64,000 bases of DNA from Candidatus Uhrbacteria bacterium (GTDB taxonomy: Bacteria > Patescibacteriota > Patescibacteriia > UBA9934 > GWF2-40-263), in contig JACRJU010000013.1 in NCBI GenBank assembly GCA_016219925.1, forward strand, positions 102,566-166,565, given 5' to 3'. Made by a program: the position numbers and the translations under genes. Under the pieces are notes generated by a model. That model saw only the letters and a list, made by a program, of their open reading frames with translations. It did not search any database and was not told the origin of the DNA. The number at the start of each line of letters is the position of its first letter. Position 1 is the stretch's first letter. Shown in pieces: positions 4,497 through 39,981 of this stretch.

Positions 4497-5066
4497 ATGT
4501 CTTCCGGCGAAATCGTTTTTGACATCGAAACCCAGTCAGCCGCCCTTAGTGATCTTCGGGCCCTGCGTATGAGCGTCATTGGATGCTATTTTTATGATAC
4601 TGATTCGTTTGAAGTCTTTGAAGAAAATGAATTGCCACAGCTTTGGCGACGATTCGAGCATGCCAGCCGATTGATTGGTTACAATAGCAAAGGGTTTGAT
4701 TTGCCTGTCATGAACAACTACTACAGCGGGGATTTTCTCAAGTTTAATAATCTCGATATTTTGGAAGAAATCCATAAAGCGCTCGGGTTTCGCTTGAAAC
4801 TGGATGATGTGGCCGGCGCGACCATCGGTGCGCATAAATCTGGCCATGGGTTGCAGGCCGTAGAGTGGTGGAAACAGGGAGAGATCAACAAAATTAAAGA
4901 GTATTGTTTGCAGGACGTGAAGATCACGCGGGACGTGTATGAATATGGCCTCAAATATGGTGCGCTGGCTTACGAAGATCGGTTGTCGGGTCGCAAGGCG
5001 ATCCCGGTCAATTTTCGTAAAACCGAGCCCGTTCCGATGAAAATCAACCTAACGATGGGGCTTTGA
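4497..5066 (+). CDS. predicted 3'-5' exonuclease, RNase H-like / DEDD superfamily
   Basis: N-terminal IVFDIETQS matches the Exo I acidic motif. Conserved Y..GFD..., C.QD and R.VYEY blocks typical of small DnaQ/PolB-exo-like proteins. Confidence 0.5.
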   Translation: MSSGEIVFDIETQSAALSDLRALRMSVIGCYFYDTDSFEVFEENELPQLWRRFEHASRLIGYNSKGFDLPVMNNYYSGDFLKFNNLDILEEIHKALGFRLKLDDVAGATIGAHKSGHGLQAVEWWKQGEINKIKEYCLQDVKITRDVYEYGLKYGALAYEDRLSGRKAIPVNFRKTEPVPMKINLTMGL

Positions 5067-5085
5067 GGTGTGGATAAACAGGTCT

Positions 5086-5139
5086 TTGACGCACAAGATA
5101 TAGTGGTCTATCATAAAAGGTGACCACAATATGTAGTGG
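5086..5139 (+). promoter_or_regulatory. sigma70-type promoter (TTGACG-17-TATCAT) overlapped by two tandem NrdR-box-like 16-bp palindromes
   Basis: TTGACG at 5086-5091, a 17-nt spacer, TATCAT at 5109-5114. Box 1 GCACAAGATATAGTGG (5091-5106) and box 2 CCACAATATGTAGTGG (5124-5139) each match the published NrdR consensus acaCwAtATaTwGtgt at 13/16 positions. They lie 33 bp apart, upstream of a ribonucleotide reductase gene. Confidence 0.5.
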
Positions 5140-5380
5140 GGAAAGGCGTCGTGGCCAGAGACCCTTCCAGGAGTGAATAGGAATGATCCCAACGGGATTG
5201 TTTTTAGTCTGCTTGTGTTGCTTACAAAATGGGCGAGCTATCGGCTGACGCTGCGGTCGTCACCTCACCGTACATCGGTGTACGGCTCGGTGCCGTCCTC
5301 GCGTTGTAGCGATATCTCATCCCATTTTGAAACCAACACGTCTGGTTTTGAGCTGATGTCTGCGTGCTGTCAATCTTCTT

Positions 5381-5449
5381 GCGGTTTGAGCTATGTCGGA
5401 GGGAACAGCGACGAGGAGTCCGCTGGCCCGGAGACATAGCATAAACCGC
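5381..5449 (+). repeat. structured hairpin element copy 1 (17-bp closing stem with 2 mismatches, 36-nt conserved core) inside the nrdJ 5' leader
   Basis: gcggtttgagctatgtc / gacatagcataaaccgc form the closing stem around core GGAGGGAACAGCGACGAGGAGTCCGCTGGCCCGGAG. The core matches copy 2 at 32/36 positions. Confidence 0.55.
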
Positions 5450-5495
5450 AAAACAATACCGCCAACAGTTACTTTACTCCTCTGTTACTTCCTTT

Positions 5496-8400
5496 ATGTC
5501 CGATCAACCGATCTCTAAAGTTCAAGTTTCCTCCTTGGACACGACCAATGTGGCCGACGCGGTTTGGCAATTTATGACCTCCGTAAAATCGTTACGGAAG
5601 CGCGATGGATCAGAACAAGATTTTGATGCTCGCAAACTCACACACTCCATTCGAGCCGCGCTTTTGGCCGCCGGCATGAAGCCTTCGCTTTGCGAGAAGA
5701 TCACCTCGCAAGTCATTTCTCGTCTTACACATCAGTTTGATGGCCACAGTGTGCCGACATTTGCCGATGTGCGCGAAGCCGTTGAGGTGACGCTCATCGA
5801 TAACAATCTGATTCATGTTGCAAAGAAGTACTTGTCTTTTCGCGGATCGGAATCTCGCGCGGCGCAAACCGAGCGTTATGGAAAGGGGATTACTGTTGAT
5901 CGTTTTTTCACCAAAGAAGGCGTTCATCCTTATGACGAGATCGAATGGGAAAAACGTGACGCGGTTATTTCAGGATCCAAAGGGGAGGTTGTATTTGAAC
6001 AGAAAGGAGTTGAAGTTCCAAAATCGTGGACGCAGACTGCGACGAATATCGTTGTTTCAAAATATTTTTTTGGGACGATTGGCAAAGATGATCGCGAATA
6101 TTCGGTAAAACAGTTGGTTCACCGCGTCGCATCCACCATCGCCAACTGGGGTCGCAAGGACGGCTATTTCCAAACCGGAGAAGATGCGCAACATTTCGAA
6201 GACGAGCTTCATCATATTTTGGTCAATCAAATGGCCGCTTTTAACTCACCGGTCTGGTTTAACGTCGGGACGACTCGTCCCCCACAGTGTAGCGCCTGCT
6301 TTATCAATTCTGTTGAAGATGACATGCGTTCTATTTTGAATCTGTGCGTGACGGAAGGTACGTTGTTTAAGGGAGGCTCTGGGACAGGATCCAATCTCTC
6401 TAAACTCCGCTCCAAGCACGAATACTTAAGCGGAAGCAATGGCAAAGCCTCCGGTCCGATTTCGTTTATGAAGGGTCTTGATGCTTTTGCAGGAGTGATT
6501 AAAAGCGGAGGCAAAACGCGTCGAGCGGCCAAAATGGTGATTTTGGATATTACGCATCCCGATATTGACGATTTCATCATGTGTAAGGTGGAGGAAGAAA
6601 AGAAAGCCTGGGCGCTGATGGACGCCGGATACGATGGTTCGATTGACGGTCCGGCTTATGCCTCCATCTATTTTCAAAACGCCAACAACTCGGTGCGCGT
6701 GACGGATGATTTTATGCGCGCGTACGAGACCGACGACTCGTGGGCGACTCGCGCCGTCACAACCGGCGAACCGGTGAAAACCTGGAAAGCGCGCGAGCTC
6801 ATGGATATGATGGCCGATGCGGCATGGCAGTGCGGCGATCCGGGCATTCAATATGATACGACGATCAACGACTGGCACACCTGTTCGAACACGGATCGCA
6901 TTTACGCGTCCAATCCGTGCAGTGAGTACATGTTCCTCAATGACAGCGCTTGCAACCTCGCTTCGCTTAACCTCATGAAGTTTCGCAAGCTCGTCGGGAG
7001 CGAAATGGTGTTTGATGTGGAGTCTTTCAAAAAAGCCAATGAGGTCATCATCACCGCCATGGAAATTATCGTCGGCAATTCGGTCTATCCAACCCCGGCG
7101 ATCGAACAGAACAGCTATGACTACCGCCCACTGGGCATCGGCTACGCCAACCTCGGTGCTTTGCTTATGAGCCGCGGGCTTCCGTATGATTCGGATGCCG
7201 GTCGCAATCTCGCGGCGGCCATCACGTCTTTGCAAAGTGGTCACTGTTATTATCAATCGGCTAAGATTGCGGAAAAAGTCGGACCGTTTGCTGGCTACAA
7301 AGCCAATGAAGATCCTTGTTTGCGTGTGATGCGCAAACATCGCGATGCCTCTTATGAAGTGGCCACCGATGGAGTGCCGGCGGATTTGCTTAGCGCGTCT
7401 CGCGTGGCTTGGGACAATGTCGTTGAGCAGGCGAGCCAGTATGGTTTGCGCAACGCACAAATTAGCGTGATCGCTCCGACAGGAACCATTTCTTTCCTCA
7501 TGGATTGTGATACGACTGGCGTCGAACCGGATATCGCACTTGTGAAATACAAATGGTTGGTTGGGGGTGGGATGTTCAAGATTATCAACAACACAGTTCC
7601 TGAAGTTCTGACGCGTTTGGGATACACCCAAACGGAGCGCGATGATATTTTGGCCTTCATTGAAAAAAACGACACGATTGAAGGAGCTCCGCATGTGAAG
7701 ATCGAACATTTGCCGGTGTTTGATTGTGCGTTCAAGGCGGCCAATGGCACGCGTACGATTCAGTACATGGGTCATGTACGCATGATGGCCGCGGTTCAAC
7801 CGTTTGTTTCCGGCGCCATTTCCAAAACCGTAAACATGCCCCATGAAGCGACCGCGCAAGATATTGCCGACGTTTATGTGCAAGGATGGAAGCTCGGGCT
7901 CAAAGCGATCGCCATTTATCGTGATGGCTCCAAGCGCCAGCAGGCGTTGACGACATCCAAAGAAAGCGACGCGAAGAAACAAAATGAATCTTCTATCGTT
8001 GCGAAAAGCGAACCGAAGGCGAGTGGCGAGGCCATCTCAACGGTTACGACCCAGACTGATCAACGTCTCCGCCGACACCGCCTTTCCGATGAACGACGCG
8101 CCATCACGCACAAGTTTAAGGTCGGGCCGCATGAAGGATATATCACCGTCGGTCTCTATGATGATGGAGCGCCGGGAGAAATTTTTGTCACCATGTCCAA
8201 AGAGGGATCCGTCATTAGCGGACTGATGGATAGTTTTGCAACAGCGATTTCTATCGGCTTGCAATACGGTGTTCCCCTGGAAGTCTTGGTCAATAAATTC
8301 GTTCACATGCGATTTGAACCTTCCGGATATACCAACAACCCCCAAATCCGCATTGCCAAATCCATCACGGATTACATTTTCCGTTGGCTTGCCATCAAGT

Positions 8401-8669
8401 TTTTGCCGCGGGAGTCGCAGATGACTTTGGGCATTAACACGGTGGACGAATCGCTCGACCAGCCTGTGAAAACCGCGGACGAAAAAGTGGAATTCGCGAC
8501 TCCGACCGTTCCACAACCGAAATTATTTGAACGGACACAGAGTGATCACATCCAAACTTTCGATAATCAGTCAGATGCGCCAGCCTGCGACACGTGCGGT
8601 TCGATCATGGTGCGCAATGCCGCCTGTTATAAATGTTTGAATTGTGGGGGAACGAGCGGGTGTAGCTAA
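5496..8669 (+). CDS. nrdJ: adenosylcobalamin-dependent ribonucleoside-diphosphate reductase (class II) with N-terminal ATP-cone and C-terminal Cys4 zinc ribbon
   Basis: 1057 aa. ATP-cone-like N-terminus. NSPVWFNVGT and SNPCSEYMF active-site blocks of class I/II RNR. C-terminal CDTCGS...CYKCLNCGG zinc ribbon. Confidence 0.85.
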   Translation: MSDQPISKVQVSSLDTTNVADAVWQFMTSVKSLRKRDGSEQDFDARKLTHSIRAALLAAGMKPSLCEKITSQVISRLTHQFDGHSVPTFADVREAVEVTLIDNNLIHVAKKYLSFRGSESRAAQTERYGKGITVDRFFTKEGVHPYDEIEWEKRDAVISGSKGEVVFEQKGVEVPKSWTQTATNIVVSKYFFGTIGKDDREYSVKQLVHRVASTIANWGRKDGYFQTGEDAQHFEDELHHILVNQMAAFNSPVWFNVGTTRPPQCSACFINSVEDDMRSILNLCVTEGTLFKGGSGTGSNLSKLRSKHEYLSGSNGKASGPISFMKGLDAFAGVIKSGGKTRRAAKMVILDITHPDIDDFIMCKVEEEKKAWALMDAGYDGSIDGPAYASIYFQNANNSVRVTDDFMRAYETDDSWATRAVTTGEPVKTWKARELMDMMADAAWQCGDPGIQYDTTINDWHTCSNTDRIYASNPCSEYMFLNDSACNLASLNLMKFRKLVGSEMVFDVESFKKANEVIITAMEIIVGNSVYPTPAIEQNSYDYRPLGIGYANLGALLMSRGLPYDSDAGRNLAAAITSLQSGHCYYQSAKIAEKVGPFAGYKANEDPCLRVMRKHRDASYEVATDGVPADLLSASRVAWDNVVEQASQYGLRNAQISVIAPTGTISFLMDCDTTGVEPDIALVKYKWLVGGGMFKIINNTVPEVLTRLGYTQTERDDILAFIEKNDTIEGAPHVKIEHLPVFDCAFKAANGTRTIQYMGHVRMMAAVQPFVSGAISKTVNMPHEATAQDIADVYVQGWKLGLKAIAIYRDGSKRQQALTTSKESDAKKQNESSIVAKSEPKASGEAISTVTTQTDQRLRRHRLSDERRAITHKFKVGPHEGYITVGLYDDGAPGEIFVTMSKEGSVISGLMDSFATAISIGLQYGVPLEVLVNKFVHMRFEPSGYTNNPQIRIAKSITDYIFRWLAIKFLPRESQMTLGINTVDESLDQPVKTADEKVEFATPTVPQPKLFERTQSDHIQTFDNQSDAPACDTCGSIMVRNAACYKCLNCGGTSGCS

Positions 8670-8756: not shown

Positions 8757-8833
8757 GCGATGACGATCTATCCTGCCGGAGGGAACAACGGCGACGAGTC
8801 CGTTGGCCCGGAGGCAGGATAGATCGTCATCGC
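8757..8833 (+). repeat. structured hairpin element copy 2 (perfect 21-bp closing stem, 35-nt conserved core) immediately 3' of nrdJ
   Basis: gcgatgacgatctatcctgcc ... ggcaggatagatcgtcatcgc are perfect reverse complements. The core GGAGGGAACAACGGCGACGAGTCCGTTGGCCCGGAG matches copy 1. Confidence 0.55.
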
Positions 8834-8869: not shown

Positions 8870-8898
8870 AAGAGGGCTCATCATGTCCCTCTTTTTTG
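8870..8898 (+). terminator. rho-independent terminator after nrdJ
   Basis: aagaggg-ctcatcatgt-ccctct stem-loop followed by TTTTT. Confidence 0.55.
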
Positions 8899-17405: not shown

Positions 17406-17604
17406 TATTGATGCCTTTTTTGAAGAGACCGTCGCGCGAGGACGCGAACAGGGCGTCGTGGATCAACCCAGCTATGATGATTTGGTTGAGCAGGTGATCG
17501 AACAGCACCGTTCGCTTGGCGAGATTCATGACGACGAACCGACCGAGGATATGGAAGAGCAGTTGCGCGGGCGATGGGAGGAGTATCTTGAACGCGTTGC
17601 TTGA
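17380..17604 (+). CDS. small acidic hypothetical protein (74 aa)
   Basis: ATG at 17380. Highly acidic. Overlaps the VKOR 3' end in another frame; may be spurious. Confidence 0.25.
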   Translation: MTTEFLNLDIDAFFEETVARGREQGVVDQPSYDDLVEQVIEQHRSLGEIHDDEPTEDMEEQLRGRWEEYLERVA

Positions 17605-17608
17605 TCGT

Positions 17609-18979
17609 ATGAAATTGTCTTTTCATGGAGCCGTTCGCGAGGTGACAGGATCGTGCATGCACCTCAAGGTGAAAGATACCGCGGGCGTAGAACACCGGTA
17701 TCTTTTTGATTGCGGGATGTTTCAAGGTGAGCATTTGTGCGGCGATAAAAACATGCGGCCGTTTGCTTTTGATCCCAAACACGTTGAAGCGGTTTTTGTG
17801 ACACACCCGCACGCAGACCACAATGGTCGGTTGCCTAAATTGATTAAAGAAGGATTTGCCGGACCAATTTATATGACCCCGCCTTGCACAGCGCTCTCGA
17901 GGCTCGTGTTGGAAGACGCTCATCACATCATGGCCGAGGAAGCGGAGAAATGCGGAAGTTCCGTGCTATATGAATTGGCGGACCTTTTGGGAACGTTTGA
18001 TCGCGTCAAAACCGTCGGCTATCACGAAGAGGTTGCGCCGGCGCCCGGCATCAAGATTTATTTTCATGAAGCGGGCCATGTGCTCGGCTCGGCCTATATC
18101 TCCGTTGAAGCAGAAGGCAAGCGGGTGATTTTTTCGGGAGACATTGGTAACGATGATGTGCCGATTCTTCCGCAGACCGAGGCGATCTCGCGCGCGGATG
18201 TCGTCGTGTGTGAATCCACCTATGGACATCGCGTCCACGAACCGATCGCCGAGCGCGAAACCAAACTGCGCGGTGCGCTTGAAGAAGTCATGACGAACAA
18301 AGGGGTTCTGCTCATTCCGGCGTTTTCCATTGAGCGCACACAAGAACTTCTTTACGCCTTGGATCGCCTGCTTGAGCATGAACTCAAGACAACCATGCCC
18401 ATTTTTCTTGATAGCCCGATGGCCATCAAAGCGACACAAGTGTATCGCGATTTCAAAGAGTACTTGCGGTTTGACTCGCCTATTTTGCAGGAGGCGGATC
18501 GTGATTTTTTCAGCTTCAAAAATTTGCGCGAAACGCTTACGGTTGAAGAATCCAAAGCCATTAACAATGTGCCCGCGCCTAAAGTGATTATCGCCGGTTC
18601 TGGCATGATGTCAGGCGGGCGTATCATGCATCACCTCATTCGTTATCTTCCCGATCCTTCCACGCGTCTGCTCATCATCGGTTATCAAGCCACCGGAACC
18701 ATTGGGCGCAAAATTTACGAGGGGGAAAAGCGCGTGCGTATTTTTGGCCAATCGGTTGAAGTGAAGGCAAAGACCGCCGCGATCGGTGCGTTTTCCGCGC
18801 ACGGCGATATGAACAAGCTCACACGCTGGCTGCATCCGGAATCCGGCAAAATTCCCACTGAAATTTTCCTCACACACGGGGACAGTGACGCGAAAGAAGT
18901 GTTTGCCACGCATTTGCGTCACGAGCTCGGCACGCAAGTCGTCATTCCAGAGTTCGAAAGCGAACATGAGATCTCGTGA
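17609..18979 (+). CDS. MBL-fold beta-CASP ribonuclease (RNase J / CPSF73-like metallo-hydrolase)
   Basis: The HPHADH metallo-beta-lactamase motif, with downstream D and H motifs and an RNA-metabolising beta-CASP layout. ATG at 17609. Confidence 0.7.
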   Translation: MKLSFHGAVREVTGSCMHLKVKDTAGVEHRYLFDCGMFQGEHLCGDKNMRPFAFDPKHVEAVFVTHPHADHNGRLPKLIKEGFAGPIYMTPPCTALSRLVLEDAHHIMAEEAEKCGSSVLYELADLLGTFDRVKTVGYHEEVAPAPGIKIYFHEAGHVLGSAYISVEAEGKRVIFSGDIGNDDVPILPQTEAISRADVVVCESTYGHRVHEPIAERETKLRGALEEVMTNKGVLLIPAFSIERTQELLYALDRLLEHELKTTMPIFLDSPMAIKATQVYRDFKEYLRFDSPILQEADRDFFSFKNLRETLTVEESKAINNVPAPKVIIAGSGMMSGGRIMHHLIRYLPDPSTRLLIIGYQATGTIGRKIYEGEKRVRIFGQSVEVKAKTAAIGAFSAHGDMNKLTRWLHPESGKIPTEIFLTHGDSDAKEVFATHLRHELGTQVVIPEFESEHEIS

Positions 18980-19002: not shown

Positions 19003-20808
19003 ATGCTTTCGGCTATGTCACCGTCCCGCATCAGAAACTTTTGTATTATTGCTCACATCGATCATGGCAAGTCCACATTGTCTGACCGCTTATTGGAGAT
19101 GACCGGGACGGTCGACGCGCGCCATATGAAGGCGCAGATTTTAGATTCGATGGAACTCGAGCGCGAGAAAGGCATCACGATCAAGCTGGCGCCGGCGCGC
19201 ATGATGTATCGCGACATGGTGCTCAATCTCATTGATACGCCCGGACATGTTGATTTTACTTATGAAGTCAGTCGATCTTTGGCGGCAGTCGAAGGGGCAA
19301 TTTTGCTTGTGGATGCGACGCAAGGCATTCAGGCGCAGACGATCGGAAATTTGTATTTGGCGCTTGAGGAGGAGCTCGAGGTTATTCCGGTTCTGAACAA
19401 AATTGATTTACCAGCGGCAGATGTAGAAAAACGCACCCAGGAACTTGTTCAGCTTTTGGGATGCAAACCGGAAGAAATTTTGCGTGTGAGCGGGAAGACG
19501 GGGCAGGGCGTGGAGGTTTTGCTTGAGGCGATCGTTGAGCGCATTCCGCCGCCCTCGGGCCAACCCGAAGCACCTACGCGCGCGCTCATCTTCGATTCCT
19601 TTTATGATGATTACCGCGGCGTGATGGCATATGTGCGCGTGGTGGATGGCGCGTTAAAAAAAGGCGCGCGTGTGCATATGATCGCCACGGATAAGACACT
19701 TGAAGTCCTTGAGGTGGGCGCCGTGACCCCGGGAGGATTTAAAGCCTCGCCGGAGTTGGCGTGCGGACAGATTGGCTATGTGGTGACTGGTCTCAAAGAT
19801 ATTTCCGGTTGTCGCGTGGGAGATACCATCACCGAAGAAAACAAGCAGGCGAAAGTTGAGCCGCTGGCGGGATATAAAGAAGTGCGACCGATGGTGTATG
19901 CCGGTATTTTTCCAGAGCAAGGTGATGATTTTCATCGTCTGCGCGATGCCATCGAACGGCTCAAGCTTAACGATTCTGCGCTCAGATACGAGTCGGAACA
20001 TTCCCCGGCGCTCGGCTACGGTTTTCGCGTCGGGCTGTTGGGCATGTTGCATTTGGAAATTTTAAAGGAACGCTTGGAGCGAGAATTTGATCTTGCTCTG
20101 GTGGTTACGGTGCCATCGGTTGCTTACCGAGTTATTCTGCGTGCGGGCGGAATCGAAACGATTAAAAGCTCGCTTGATCTTCCCGACCCATCGTTTATTG
20201 AACACATCGAAGAGCCGTGGGTGAAAATTGATGTGGTGTGTCCTTCGGAATACATCGGGGCGGTGATGCAATTGGTGCAGGAACGGCGCGGGGTGTATCG
20301 CAATACGGAGTATCTGCTTGGCGATCGTGCGATTTTGCATTACGAGATTCCGCTCGCGATGATCATCGTTGATTTTTATGACAAGTTGAAGGGGGTCACG
20401 GCGGGGTACGCTTCCATGAATTACGAGGTGTTGGATTATCGCAACGCGGATGTCGTGCGCATGGATATTATGGTTGCGGAAGAATCGGTGGATGCGTTTG
20501 CCACGCTCGTGTATCGCGACGAGGCCGAGCGATCTGGGCGCCGTGTGCTCACCGTGCTCAAGGATACCATCCCACGAGAAAATTTTGTAATCAAACTGCA
20601 AGCAAGCGTGGGAGGAAAGGTCGTTGCCGCCGAGCGCATTTCGGCTCTGCGCAAAGACGTGACCGCCAAGCTCTACGGCGGAGACGTGACGCGCAAGCGC
20701 AAGTTGCTGGAAAAGCAGAAGAAAGGAAAAGCCAAAATGGCCGAGATTGGCCGCGGCCGCGTGAATATCCCCACAGATGCGTATTTGAAAGTATTAAAAC
20801 GAGAGTAA
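19003..20808 (+). CDS. lepA: translation elongation factor 4 (LepA)
   Basis: IRNFCIIAHIDHGKSTLSDR G1 motif, DTPGHVDF, NKID and a LepA-specific C-terminal domain. The SD-like AAGGATAGG lies 5 nt upstream of the ATG at 19003; the start could instead be at 19015. Confidence 0.9.
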   Translation: MLSAMSPSRIRNFCIIAHIDHGKSTLSDRLLEMTGTVDARHMKAQILDSMELEREKGITIKLAPARMMYRDMVLNLIDTPGHVDFTYEVSRSLAAVEGAILLVDATQGIQAQTIGNLYLALEEELEVIPVLNKIDLPAADVEKRTQELVQLLGCKPEEILRVSGKTGQGVEVLLEAIVERIPPPSGQPEAPTRALIFDSFYDDYRGVMAYVRVVDGALKKGARVHMIATDKTLEVLEVGAVTPGGFKASPELACGQIGYVVTGLKDISGCRVGDTITEENKQAKVEPLAGYKEVRPMVYAGIFPEQGDDFHRLRDAIERLKLNDSALRYESEHSPALGYGFRVGLLGMLHLEILKERLEREFDLALVVTVPSVAYRVILRAGGIETIKSSLDLPDPSFIEHIEEPWVKIDVVCPSEYIGAVMQLVQERRGVYRNTEYLLGDRAILHYEIPLAMIIVDFYDKLKGVTAGYASMNYEVLDYRNADVVRMDIMVAEESVDAFATLVYRDEAERSGRRVLTVLKDTIPRENFVIKLQASVGGKVVAAERISALRKDVTAKLYGGDVTRKRKLLEKQKKGKAKMAEIGRGRVNIPTDAYLKVLKRE

Positions 20809-31770: not shown

Positions 31771-32136
31771 ATGACAAATCTTCGCATTGCCAATACGGCC
31801 ATCTTTTTGTCCGTCGCGGTTCTTCACGCGATGCGCATCGCGTACAAATTGCCAGTGTTCGTCGGCTCCATCGAACTCTCGCTCTGGCTCTCGGTCGTTG
31901 CCGTGATCGGCGCCGGAGTATTGAGCTGGATGAACTGGCGCACGATTCATGCACCCGGCAAAACCGAATGGCTCAAGCTTTTGCTTGCCCTATTCGTTGT
32001 TGATGCCGCAATCGTGTTTTATTCCTGGGTTTCCGGTTTGTCCTTTTGGGGAATCGCTAACACTCAATTCGCTTGGATTTTGTTGTTTGATTTAGTGGTG
32101 ATCGTACTGTTGTCGTGGACGGCGCGGAAAAAATAA
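31771..32136 (+). CDS. small hypothetical membrane protein (121 aa, 4 TM)
   Basis: ATG start; a hydrophobic ORF with nothing further recognisable. Confidence 0.4.
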   Translation: MTNLRIANTAIFLSVAVLHAMRIAYKLPVFVGSIELSLWLSVVAVIGAGVLSWMNWRTIHAPGKTEWLKLLLALFVVDAAIVFYSWVSGLSFWGIANTQFAWILLFDLVVIVLLSWTARKK

Positions 32137-32138
32137 TT

Positions 32139-32552
32139 ATGCACGTGCGTATTTACACGGATGGAGGGTCGCGGGGAAATCCGGGACCGGCGGCTTCGGC
32201 CGCGGTGATCAAGACAGTACATGCCGGTAAAGAAGGCGAAACGATTGCAGAGGTTTCGAAGTTTTTGGGTCGGGAGACGAATAATCAAGCGGAGTACACC
32301 GCGATCATTATTGGTTTACAGAAAGCGCATCGGCTCGGGGCCAAGCAAGTCGAGGTGTACATGGATTCCGAACTTGCCACCCGTCAGCTCAACGGACAAT
32401 ATAAAGTGAAAGACGCCGGAATCGCCAAACGATTTTTAGAAGTGAAAAATTTAATACAGGCTTTTAATCGCGTGACGTTTACGCATGTGCGGCGCGAGCG
32501 CAACAAAGAAGCGGATGCGCTTGTCAACAAAGTCCTCGATGCGAACGCGTGA
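32139..32552 (+). CDS. rnhA: ribonuclease HI
   Basis: YTDGGSRGNPGPAA..., then E...AEY.A and a C-terminal DA..N. The RNase H catalytic D-E-D-D residues are in place. Confidence 0.85.
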   Translation: MHVRIYTDGGSRGNPGPAASAAVIKTVHAGKEGETIAEVSKFLGRETNNQAEYTAIIIGLQKAHRLGAKQVEVYMDSELATRQLNGQYKVKDAGIAKRFLEVKNLIQAFNRVTFTHVRRERNKEADALVNKVLDANA

Positions 32553-39843: not shown

Positions 39844-39877
39844 CCTGCCGGAGGGAACAACGGCAACGAGTTCGTCG
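39844..39877 (+). repeat. structured hairpin element copy 3 (5' two-thirds only, no closing stem) downstream of lgt
   Basis: The 21-nt stretch cctgccggagggaacaacggc is identical to copy 2 (8771-8791). The element then diverges and lacks the 3' GGCCCGGAG segment. Confidence 0.45.
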
Positions 39878-39981
39878 GATATATCTGTCGAAAAAAAATT
39901 GACAAATTGTTCATTTAAAAATAGCCTGAAATCAGGTTCTTTTTTATCTATCCACATTTTTGTTGAAATTTATTGTTGACT

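What the first reader, a model, noticed from the sequence alone, without database searches (positions are those of the whole stretch)
5140..5495. Roughly 355-nt structured leader in front of nrdJ, with a terminator-like hairpin and the hairpin element
Between the predicted start site and the nrdJ ATG there is no plausible ORF; the 88-aa ORF 5173..5439 has no start context and is probably spurious. The region contains a small hairpin plus T-run (5186-5205, atccc-aac-gggat TGTTTTT) that could act as an attenuator. It also holds a 7-bp hairpin (5268-5285) and copy 1 of the conserved hairpin element (5381-5449). A leader this long and structured suggests post-initiation control, such as attenuation, a riboswitch-like sensor or a protein-binding site, in addition to NrdR. 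I checked for a cobalamin riboswitch and found no convincing B12-box.
Basis: seen in the sequence. Interest (0 to 1): 0.5.

Follow-up and report, generated by a model that had tools for sequence, protein, structure and literature searches.

The report
Patchwork nrdJ leader with conserved terminator
The long untranslated stretch in front of the B12-dependent ribonucleotide reductase gene of this Uhrbacteria (CPR) genome is a short terminator-like hairpin, conserved before this gene across the group, followed by two long hairpin repeats found only in this lineage; it is probably a simple transcription attenuator padded by repeats, not a riboswitch.

Summary
Comparison with 38 related Uhrbacteria nrdJ loci splits the roughly 375-nt leader into two parts.

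(1) Conserved control region. It holds a DnaA box, a sigma-70 promoter overlapped by two NrdR boxes, and then the small hairpin plus T-run (5178-5206). A hairpin plus T-run occupies this position in 31 of 39 leaders by a strict rule, against 5.8% of random windows. The stems differ between clades. The close-clade sequence motif occurs only at nrdJ.

(2) Lineage-specific filler. Syntenic relatives have 135-259-nt spacers where the window has 429. The extra sequence is a 125-nt long hairpin shared with one other genome (L003) and one copy of a dispersed 77-99-nt hairpin repeat. A second copy lies just after nrdJ. About 60 distinct copies turned up in groundwater metagenomes. All 22 outer-stem pairs covary, G·U pairs outnumber A·C mismatches on one strand, and there are no target-site duplications.

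No Rfam family matches. The spacer between NrdR box 2 and the hairpin is 0-91 nt, too variable for a shared aptamer. The 88-aa ORF is spurious.

Best reading: a promoter-proximal intrinsic-terminator attenuator of unknown input, plus REP-like insertions.

The parts
5069..5077 (+). DnaA box TGTGGATAA just upstream of the -35
   Evidence: The 8-mer core lies upstream of the nrdJ promoter in 32 of 33 Uhrbacteria loci. Background is 0.078 per kb, and most of that background is this site. It is invariant in alignment A1.
5086..5114 (+). Sigma-70-type promoter, -35 TTGACG, 17-nt spacer, -10 TATCAT; predicted start near 5122
   Evidence: Consensus scan scores 10 of 12. TTGAC and TAAAAT-like hexamers are conserved in relatives. 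The start site is not mapped.
5092..5105 (.). NrdR box 1 (CACAAGATATAGTG), between -35 and -10
   Evidence: Pairs of boxes 32-33 nt apart are seen in most of the 33 related loci; several show only one box at the mismatch threshold used. These are the only two strong matches in the 64-kb window.
5125..5138 (.). NrdR box 2 (CACAATATGTAGTG), at about +4 to +17 of the transcript
5140..5168 (+). Clade-specific hairpin P1 (GGAA.GG ... CC.UUCC)
   Evidence: Appears in the MFE of the 5' leader. GGGGAAG...CCCTTCC recurs in L004, L005, L012, L027 and L082. In L001 and L155 an equivalent hairpin is itself followed by the T-run.
5167..5173 (+). Invariant CCAGGAG (Shine-Dalgarno-like) of the close clade; role unexplained
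   Evidence: Invariant columns in A6. Absent in L153, L001, L154 and L155. SD motifs are rare in this genome.
5178..5206 (+). Terminator-like hairpin plus U-run (core 5186-5198, T-run 5199-5205): the candidate attenuator
   Evidence: Fold of -8.1 kcal/mol. Conserved in position in 26 of 33 plus 5 of 6 leaders, against 5.8% of random windows. Model R2 hits only nrdJ leaders in 696 kb. It forms in the full-length MFE of most leaders.
5183..5248 (+). Mini-ORF (MIPTGLFLVCLCCLQNGRAIG*) whose AUG lies in the 5' arm of the terminator; probably not a conserved peptide
   Evidence: AUGAUCC is invariant in the close clade. ORF length varies from 3 to more than 25 codons. The start codon is missing in L010, L011, L031, L001, L154 and L155.
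5215..5339 (.). 125-nt long imperfect hairpin ('middle module'); its tip is the 7-bp hairpin 5268-5285
   Evidence: z is -5.4 on the + strand and -8.7 on the - strand. Shared only with L003 at the same position, with a conserved apex and a lower stem that differs but still pairs. Absent from syntenic relatives L081-L084 and L153-L158.
5379..5451 (+). Copy 1 of the dispersed hairpin repeat (conserved apex 5398-5432)
   Evidence: z -7.9. Model R1 scores 77 bits. Absent from all other nrdJ leaders.
5173..5439 (+). 88-aa ORF, spurious
   Evidence: No Pfam hit. It runs across the two inserted hairpins, which relatives lack.
5496..8669 (+). nrdJ, class II (B12-dependent) ribonucleotide reductase with ATP-cone
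   Evidence: Pfam. 100% identical to a Candidatus Uhrbacteria protein.
8757..8833 (+). Copy 2 of the hairpin repeat, 87 nt after the nrdJ stop, with a perfect 21-bp outer stem
   Evidence: z -9.5. R1 scores 89 bits. The region is absent from relatives.
8870..8897 (+). Actual nrdJ terminator (AAGAGGG...CCCTCTT plus T-run), conserved in relatives
   Evidence: Alignment A2.
39844..39878 (+). Partial, degenerate copy 3 of the hairpin repeat, after lgt
   Evidence: It does not fold like the full copies and is not found by R1.

Best explanation
The leader is a composite of two parts.

Part 1 (5069-5206) is the conserved nrdJ control region of Uhrbacteria. It holds a DnaA box, then a sigma-70 promoter occluded by two NrdR boxes. 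About 55-85 nt into the transcript lies an intrinsic-terminator-type hairpin with a U-run. I infer that this hairpin stops a fraction of the transcripts that escape NrdR repression. That would make it a promoter-proximal attenuator. Its default state is 'terminator formed', and read-through would be set by RNA polymerase kinetics or a trans-acting factor, not by an RNA aptamer.

Part 2 (about 5207-5495) is lineage-specific filler. It consists of a 125-nt long hairpin shared with only one other genome, and one copy of a dispersed, REP-like 77-99-nt hairpin repeat. A second copy of that repeat lies in the nrdJ 3' UTR. These insertions lengthen and structure the leader. They are not a dedicated nrdJ sensor; at most they affect mRNA stability or processing.

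Shown: the anatomy, the conservation, the specificity of the motif to nrdJ, the absence of the filler from relatives, and the repeat family with its covariation.

Inferred: the transcription start, that the hairpin terminates transcription, and that termination is partial or regulated.
For: Conserved part:
- NrdR boxes lie upstream of nrdJ in the 33 relatives first examined, as pairs 32-33 nt apart in most of them.
- The -35 and -10 hexamers and the DnaA box are conserved.
- A hairpin plus T-run follows box 2 within 130 nt in 26 of 33 plus 5 of 6 leaders, against 5.8% of random windows.
- At least six unrelated stem sequences are used, for example GAUCCC/GGGAUU, CCCAGA/UCUGGG, CUCCC/GGGAG, GGGGCA/UGCCUC and GGGGAAUG/CCUUCCUU.
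- The hairpin persists where the upstream gene is divergent: L011, L013, L014, L028.
- In several relatives only 30-41 nt separate the hairpin from the ATG, so nrdJ transcripts must pass through it.
- The close-clade motif model R2 gives strong hits only at nrdJ leaders in 696 kb.
- The terminator forms in the full-length MFE of most leaders.

Filler:
- Syntenic relatives have 153, 203 and 182 nt and 135-259 nt where the window has 429.
- They have 70-94 nt after nrdJ where the window has 256.
- The middle module is found only in L003.
- The repeat is found by R1 only in the window (two copies) and in L003 among 43 nrdJ loci.
- The metagenome scan gave 68 matching stretches. About 61 distinct copies align as a hairpin with 22 of 22 outer pairs covarying and 91.8% paired, against about 40% when the partners are slid.
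- The repeat sits in tandem and convergent intergenic regions in either orientation.
- It is present between two genes in L116 whose window orthologues (17516..18979 and lepA at 19004) are about 25 nt apart.
Against: - No transcript ends are mapped, so both the promoter and termination are predictions.
- The window's hairpin alone is weak: -8.1 kcal/mol, z -1.4.
- Within the close clade the stem shows conservation but no covariation.
- About 8 of 39 leaders fail the strict rule. L154 looks truly weak.
- No consistent antiterminator structure was found, so 'regulated' as opposed to 'constitutively leaky' is unproven.
- The invariant CCAGGAG and AUGAUCC of the close clade are more conserved than pairing requires and remain unexplained.
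- Both copies of the repeat lie in the same orientation and bracket nrdJ, and the middle module sits at the same place in L003. A local role for the insertions is therefore not excluded.
Confidence: 0.6

Rival explanations
1. Ribosome-coupled attenuation. The conserved AGGAG and the AUG in the 5' arm of the terminator form a start site for a mini-ORF. A 30S or 70S ribosome sitting there melts the terminator, so nrdJ transcription follows translational capacity.
For: CCAGGAG-N7-12-AUGAUCC is invariant in 12 aligned close-clade leaders. The 5' arm is more conserved than its pairing partner. The same motif appears in L156-L158. AGGAG lies unpaired between P1 and the terminator.
Against: The ORF varies from 3 to more than 25 codons with no conserved peptide. 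There is no start codon in L010, L011 and L031, no AGGAG in L153, and the whole module is missing in L001, L154 and L155, which still have a hairpin plus U-run. SD motifs are rare in this genome and nrdJ itself has none. The AUG emerges only about 20 nt before the U-run is made, which leaves little time for ribosome loading.
Confidence: 0.1
2. Insulator terminator plus a second promoter. The hairpin ends read-through from the upstream exonuclease gene (and from the NrdR promoter), and nrdJ is transcribed mainly from an unrecognised promoter closer to the ATG.
For: The upstream gene is co-directional in 26 of 33 loci and has no terminator of its own before the promoter. Many genes here have very short leaders. 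A CATACT-N6-ATG arrangement in L006 and L012 could be a leaderless-type -10. In P. acnes, nrdRJ has two promoters and only one is NrdR-controlled (PMC3848588).
Against: NrdR boxes and the DnaA box are conserved at the upstream promoter (DnaA box in 32 of 33 loci), which only makes sense if that promoter drives nrdJ. The hairpin persists where the upstream gene is divergent. In seven relatives only 30-41 nt lie between the hairpin and the ATG. No promoter-like site was found at 5207-5495 in the window.
Confidence: 0.1
3. The inserted long hairpins are themselves nrdJ-specific regulatory RNA structures, for example protein or RNase III sites at both ends of the mRNA that set its stability.
For: Copies 1 and 2 lie in the same orientation in the 5' and 3' UTRs of nrdJ. 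The middle module occupies the same leader position in L003. The folds are very stable.
Against: The same repeat occurs at about 60 unrelated intergenic sites, in both orientations relative to genes. It is absent from 41 of 43 nrdJ loci examined. The chance that two of three copies fall in adjacent spacers is roughly 0.1 by my estimate.
Confidence: 0.07
4. The small hairpin plus T-run has no function. It is a chance or neutral feature of an AT-rich leader.
For: z is -1.4 in the window. The terminator-like count in the region is not above shuffles. There is no covariation inside the close clade.
Against: 31 of 39 against 5.8%. The position is conserved while the surrounding leader is not alignable. 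Unrelated stems are used in different clades.
Confidence: 0.05
5. A riboswitch or other ligand-sensing aptamer lies in the leader.
For: The leader is long and strongly structured (z -4.7). RNR genes are riboswitch-controlled elsewhere (cobalamin riboswitches before nrdAB and nrdDG, PMC3848588).
Against: No Rfam hit at E<=10. RNAalifold finds no conserved structure apart from the terminator and the box palindrome. The distance from box 2 to the hairpin is 0-91 nt. The structured bulk is repeat insertions that relatives lack.
Confidence: 0.03
6. The 88-aa ORF (5173-5439) or the antisense 71-aa ORF encodes a protein.
For: Open frames exist.
Against: No Pfam hit. The frames run through two hairpin repeats whose copies differ by 1-2-nt indels. 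The region is absent in relatives.
Confidence: 0.02

Closest known systems
Intrinsic-terminator attenuators in bacterial 5' leaders (for example pyrBI, pyrG, trp, and premature terminators seen by Term-seq); named from my own knowledge
   Same: A stem-loop followed directly by a U-run, placed between promoter and start codon and conserved in orthologous leaders. The A-rich 5' flank pairs with the U-run.
   Different: No conserved antiterminator, leader peptide or aptamer could be identified. The sensing input, if there is one, is unknown. Termination itself is unproven.
NrdR operators (two palindromic NrdR boxes overlapping nrd promoters); consensus recalled from Rodionov and Gelfand 2005, and nrd-boxes in P. 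acnes (PMC3848588)
   Same: Two boxes 33 nt apart, one between -35 and -10 and one over the start. Boxes are conserved upstream of nrdJ in the relatives.
   Different: Here the operator is followed by a conserved leader terminator and preceded by a conserved DnaA box. The nrdR gene was not found among the 10 small ORFs tested in the window.
Cobalamin riboswitches in front of RNR genes
   Same: A long structured 5' UTR in front of a ribonucleotide reductase gene.
   Different: No model match. Those riboswitches precede B12-independent RNRs (nrdAB, nrdDG; PMC3848588), not nrdJ.
Long nrdAB 5' UTR of Pseudomonas aeruginosa (PMC12528414)
   Same: A long RNR leader that lowers transcript level and stability without an identified element.
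   Different: It is a different RNR class and organism with no sequence relation. Here the length is explained by repeat insertions.
REP / BIME / REPIN elements (PMC3733652, PMC3116915, PMC2817692; titles and abstracts seen)
   Same: For the hairpin repeat: extragenic, palindromic and multi-copy, in either orientation, mostly at gene 3' ends, sometimes in adjacent inverted pairs or nested mosaics, and without target-site duplications.
   Different: It is 77-99 nt rather than 20-40 bp. The conserved, asymmetric part is the apex (GNA/GGA internal loop, GGG/CCC, AA bulge, 5-6-bp helix, CGA..AGU loop), not a GTAG or CGTC tag at the foot. The stems diverge by compensatory changes. RAYT association was not tested.
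DnaA control of ribonucleotide reductase promoters (E. coli nrdAB; my own knowledge)
   Same: A consensus DnaA box immediately upstream of the RNR promoter.
   Different: Here it sits before a class II nrdJ in CPR bacteria. The orientation flips between clades.

Membership tests
Cobalamin riboswitch (Rfam RF00174) or any other Rfam cis-regulatory family | Match to the family covariance model (B12 box and conserved helices) | tested here: not met
   cmscan of 5000-5600 on both strands at E<=10 gave 0 matches. At gathering thresholds the whole window gave only 3 tRNAs.
Intrinsic terminator / transcription attenuator | G+C-containing stem-loop followed directly by a U-run on the sense strand | tested here: met
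   5186-5198 atccc-aac-gggat with extension to 5178-5206, then TGTTTTT. The tool's own scan listed it only in the minus-strand reading.
Intrinsic terminator / transcription attenuator | Located between the promoter and the start codon of the regulated gene | tested here: met
   It lies 64 nt downstream of the -10 hexamer end (5114 to 5178), about 56 nt into the predicted transcript, and 289 nt before the ATG. The promoter is predicted and conserved in A1, but not mapped.
Intrinsic terminator / transcription attenuator | Conserved in orthologous leaders beyond chance | tested here: met
   26 of 33 plus 5 of 6 against 5.8% of random windows. Stems differ between clades.
Intrinsic terminator / transcription attenuator | Mutually exclusive antiterminator structure or another identifiable switch | tested here: inconclusive
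   Folding of transcripts truncated before the 3' arm shows no consistent pairing of the 5' arm (z near 0 in most). Clade C (L018, L019, L021, L023, L025) allows GGAGG:CUCC(C) pairing.
Intrinsic terminator / transcription attenuator | RNA 3' ends at the U-run, with read-through that varies by condition | not testable with these tools
   No transcript data are available.
Leader-peptide attenuation | Conserved translated leader ORF overlapping the terminator/antiterminator | tested here: not met
   The ORF runs 3 to more than 25 codons and the peptide is not conserved. The start codon or the whole module is absent in L010, L011, L031, L001, L154 and L155.
NrdR operator | Two palindromic boxes about three helical turns apart, overlapping the promoter | tested here: met
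   5092-5105 and 5125-5138. Box pairs occur in most of the 33 relatives.
NrdR operator | nrdR gene present in the genome | tested here: inconclusive
   None of the 10 small ORFs scanned in the window has an ATP-cone. The rest of the genome is not available.
REP / BIME (for the hairpin repeat) | Extragenic, hairpin-forming, multi-copy | tested here: met
   Intergenic contexts. 22 of 22 outer pairs covary. There are 3 copies in 64 kb, and up to 4 per 13-15 kb in L087, L096 and L111.
REP / BIME (for the hairpin repeat) | 20-40 bp unit with a conserved GTAG or CGTC tag at one end | tested here: not met
   The unit is 77-99 nt. The foot is variable and the apex is conserved. Columns 33-36 read GNAG with a variable N.
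REP / BIME (for the hairpin repeat) | Associated RAYT (IS200-like Y1) transposase gene | not tested
   Only 64 kb of the genome is available, and the neighbourhoods of the metagenome copies were not annotated.
MITE (for the hairpin repeat) | Target-site duplication flanking terminal inverted repeats | tested here: not met
   Direct repeats at the stem feet are no longer than in mismatched-flank controls.
Integron attC site (for the hairpin repeat) | Conserved R''/R' boxes (RYYYAAC / GTTRRRY) at the foot with a variable apex | tested here: not met
   Alignment A5 shows the opposite pattern, a variable foot and an invariant apex.

The most novel reading that the evidence does not exclude
The 77-99-nt hairpin repeat, together with the other long-hairpin modules seen alongside it, may be an undescribed class of strand-specifically folding element in CPR genomes. 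It would fold as single-stranded DNA or RNA, and its invariant asymmetric apex would be the recognition site of an unknown protein. The family would spread without target-site duplications and remodel UTRs. In this genome it brackets the only ribonucleotide reductase gene and has roughly doubled its leader.

The excess of G·U pairs over A·C mismatches on the AGGGAAC strand holds whatever the direction of the flanking genes (32:11 in sense contexts, 21:3 in antisense contexts). That pattern is not what a passive mRNA element would show.
Probability: 0.25. Interest if true: 0.65.

Novelty: new member of a known kind. Interest (0 to 1): 0.4.

Why it matters
Uhrbacteria and other CPR bacteria have tiny genomes and depend on salvaged nucleotides. 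NrdJ is their route to dNTPs.

The comparison suggests that this one gene carries a conserved three-layer control region: a DnaA box, an NrdR operator and a leader terminator. This gives a concrete, testable picture of regulation in organisms that cannot yet be grown easily.

It also gives a practical warning. A long, strongly folding leader can be produced by insertion of hairpin repeats, so length and fold energy alone do not indicate a riboswitch.

The hairpin repeat family is itself worth recording. It is abundant in some groundwater CPR genomes, shows textbook covariation, has a strand bias, and matches no Rfam family.

Tried and rejected
- Rfam at gathering and at E<=10: nothing in the leader.
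- Coding potential of the 88-aa and 71-aa ORFs: rejected.
- RNAalifold on 15 leaders: only the terminator and the NrdR-box palindrome were predicted, with no covariation. Within the close clade, pair counts do not exceed shuffles.
- Antiterminator search by folding transcripts truncated before the 3' arm: no consistent alternative pairing.
- Hammerhead-like reading of the repeat loop (CGAnGAGUC): rejected. The element is an unbranched hairpin and Rfam ribozyme models do not match.
- K-turn, SRP-like, attC and PyrR-site resemblances: considered from memory and rejected on anatomy.
- Small protein encoded in the repeat (SD plus ATG in the stem): rejected, because copies differ by 1-2-nt indels and some have an in-frame TAG.
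- Target-site duplications around the repeat: none.
- Viral contigs: no copy of the repeat.
- BLAST of the middle module against about 2 Mb of fetched loci: found only in L003.
- Second promoter close to the nrdJ ATG: none found in the window. A weak CATACT-N6-ATG occurs in a few relatives.
- Non-Uhrbacteria nrdJ loci (L032-L080): my box pattern found only 3 box pairs and no leader terminator, which is uninformative.
- Literature searches for CPR repeats or nrdJ leader attenuators: nothing relevant in the held library.

Full report
**What is there.** The window comes from a Candidatus Uhrbacteria (CPR/Patescibacteria) contig; the product of 5496-8669 is 100% identical to a protein so named. 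That product is a class II ribonucleotide reductase with ATP-cone, barrel and TSCPD domains. The upstream gene (4497-5066) is an RNase H-like exonuclease, which leaves a 429-nt spacer.

A sigma-70-type promoter, TTGACG(5086)-17-TATCAT(5114), scores 10 of 12. It is overlapped by two NrdR-type palindromes at 5092-5105 and 5125-5138. The predicted start is therefore near 5122 and the leader about 373 nt.

- The whole leader folds with z -4.7.
- The repeat copy folds with z -7.9, the 7-bp hairpin with z -2.7, and the small hairpin alone with only z -1.4.
- No Rfam family matches 5000-5600 even at E<=10.

**Comparison with relatives.** A scan of species-representative genomes gave 31 Uhrbacteria-type nrdJ loci (L001-L031). 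Exact-protein look-ups added nine closer ones.

All of the first 33 loci examined carry NrdR boxes, mostly as pairs 32-33 nt apart. The proximal box lies 87-259 nt from the ATG, against 371 nt in the window.

Syntenic relatives have the same exonuclease-nrdJ-166-aa-TrwB gene order:
- Upstream spacers are 153, 203 and 182 nt and 135-259 nt, against 429.
- Downstream spacers are 70-94 nt, against 256.

So the window carries extra DNA on both sides of nrdJ.

**The conserved element.** Immediately after NrdR box 2, nearly every leader has a hairpin followed by a T-run.
- With a strict rule (at least 5 bp, at least 3 G-C pairs, at most 1 mismatch, at least 6 T in the 9 nt around the stem end), 26 of 33 leaders score, against 5.8% of 1,496 random 130-nt windows from the same loci. 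Five of six further relatives also score.
- The stems are unrelated between clades: GAUCCC/GGGAUU, GGUCCC/GGGAUU, CCCAGA/UCUGGG, CUCCC/GGGAG, GGGGCA/UGCCUC, GGGGAAUG/CCUUCCUU.
- The rest of the leader cannot be aligned.
- Within the close clade the stem is conserved in sequence and shows no covariation.
- A covariance model of the close-clade motif (R2) gives strong hits only at nrdJ leaders in 696 kb. The few weaker hits below E about 0.02 also fall in nrdJ leaders.
- The hairpin persists where the upstream gene is divergent.
- In several genomes only 30-41 nt separate it from the ATG. Transcripts from the NrdR-controlled promoter must therefore pass through it.

This is the anatomy of a promoter-proximal intrinsic terminator acting as an attenuator.

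**What the attenuator is not.**
- The distance from box 2 to the hairpin ranges from 0 to 91 nt. RNAalifold finds no other conserved helix. A shared aptamer is therefore excluded.
- Folding of transcripts truncated before the 3' arm gives no consistent antiterminator, and the terminator forms in most full-length folds.
- In the close clade an invariant CCAGGAG lies 7-12 nt before an invariant AUGAUCC in the 5' arm. This 5' arm is more conserved than its pairing partner, which looks like a start site.
- Against that reading, the ORF varies from 3 to more than 25 codons. The start codon is absent in L010, L011 and L031, and AGGAG is absent in L153. L001 and L155 lack the whole module, and there a P1-like hairpin is followed directly by the T-run. 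L154 also lacks the module and has only a weak hairpin.
- SD motifs are rare in this genome.

I therefore keep ribosome coupling as a minor rival. The input to the attenuator remains unknown. It could be constitutive partial termination, NTP-dependent polymerase kinetics at the U-run, or a trans-acting factor.

**The filler.** Two modules account for the extra length.

- It occurs at the same leader position only in L003 (MAG DeMMO2_27), with an identical apex and a lower stem that differs yet still pairs.
- It folds better on the minus strand: -65.7 against -57.5 kcal/mol in the window, and -68.2 against -53.5 in L003.

(b) 5379-5451 is one copy of a repeat that is also present at 8757-8833 and, degenerate, at 39844-39878.
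- A pattern scan of metagenome contigs found 68 stretches. After removing 7 stemless chance hits, about 61 distinct copies remain.
- They align without effort (A5) as an unbranched hairpin. From the foot upward it has an outer stem of about 20-30 bp, a 3x3 internal loop (GNA/GGA), a GGG/CCC helix, an AA bulge, a 5-6-bp helix and a CGA(N1-2)AGU loop.
- All 22 outer pairs show compensatory changes. 91.8% of cells pair, against 35-42% with slid partners, and 0 of 500 shuffles reach the observed value.
- The apex invariance is partly imposed by the search pattern.

**Behaviour of the repeat.**
- Copies lie in tandem (12 sense, 13 antisense) and convergent (10) intergenic regions, and rarely in divergent ones (3). 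Often they fill the whole spacer.
- On the AGGGAAC strand, G·U pairs outnumber A·C mismatches 87 to 24. This holds in both sense (32:11) and antisense (21:3) gene contexts. One particular strand therefore folds, whatever the direction of host-gene transcription.
- There are no target-site duplications.
- Model R1 finds up to four copies per 13-15 kb in some contigs, including an adjacent inverted pair. It finds none in 41 of 43 nrdJ loci examined and none in viral contigs.
- In L116 the repeat and a second, 165-nt hairpin family (hp2) fill a 338-nt spacer. The window orthologues of the flanking genes (17516..18979 and lepA at 19004) are about 25 nt apart.
- hp2 is itself dispersed. In L093 and L121 its arms enclose a copy of the repeat.

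These properties resemble REP/BIME/REPIN elements, but the size and the position of the conserved motif differ from theirs.

**Verdict.** The length and overall structure of the leader are explained by lineage-specific hairpin insertions rather than by a sensor. Termination, the start site and the input signal remain to be shown experimentally.

Noticed in passing
window 5069-5077; equivalent position in L001-L031 and L081-L084: A consensus DnaA box (TGTGGATAA / TTATCCACA) sits just upstream of the nrdJ -35 in 32 of 33 Uhrbacteria loci. Its orientation flips between clades. Background frequency is 0.078 per kb. This suggests DnaA control of the class II RNR.
   Followed up: partly
L116 3452-3615; also L102, L134, L126, L111, L105, L087, L093, L121, L131: A second dispersed long-hairpin family (hp2, about 165 nt) occurs in the same metagenome contigs. 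In L093 and L121 its arms flank a copy of the 77-99-nt repeat, giving a nested mosaic like a BIME.
   Followed up: partly
window 5379-5451 and 8757-8833: The two full copies of the hairpin repeat lie in the same orientation and bracket nrdJ. By my rough estimate, two of three copies falling in adjacent spacers has a chance of about 0.1, so this may be coincidence.
   Followed up: no
window 5167-5173 and 5183-5189; alignment A6: CCAGGAG and AUGAUCC are invariant in the close clade, and the 5' arm of the terminator is more conserved than its 3' partner. No explanation fits all clades.
   Followed up: partly
window, starts of long ORFs (for example 437, 27308, 35325, 32602, 41973, 5496): Shine-Dalgarno motifs are scarce. 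Only 20 of 45 long ORFs have any SD-preceded start candidate, and many ATGs follow pyrimidine-rich sequence or a TGnTAnAAT-like -10 at very short distance. A YCCU-AUG context recurs at nrdJ in relatives.
   Followed up: partly
L002, L006, L009, L012, L014, L016, L018-L020, L025, L030 (record titles): Several MAG records titled 'uncultured Gammaproteobacteria bacterium' carry nrdJ 64-82% identical to the Uhrbacteria gene, with the same leader architecture. Their taxonomic labels are probably wrong.
   Followed up: no
P0004, P0011, P0031, P0068, P0072: Some close NrdJ homologues are about 1,360-1,430 aa long and carry intein/homing-endonuclease domains (PF14528, PF14890). The window's NrdJ has no intein.
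   Followed up: no
L155 about 520-565 and L156 about 640-680: Other nrdJ control regions have picked up their own extra perfect hairpins, upstream of the DnaA box in L155 and downstream of the attenuator in L156. Hairpin gain around this gene appears to be recurrent.
   Followed up: no
window 32115-32552: This ORF has RNase H / RVT_3 domains. A weak NrdR-box-like match (GACAATATAAAGTG) lies inside it at 32395 and is probably chance.
   Followed up: no
L013 13209-13233: A 25-nt stretch about 50 nt after the L013 nrdJ stop is 96% identical to the apex of the L003 middle module (ACCGTAC...GTACGGCTCGG). It hints that this module may also occur elsewhere.
   Followed up: no
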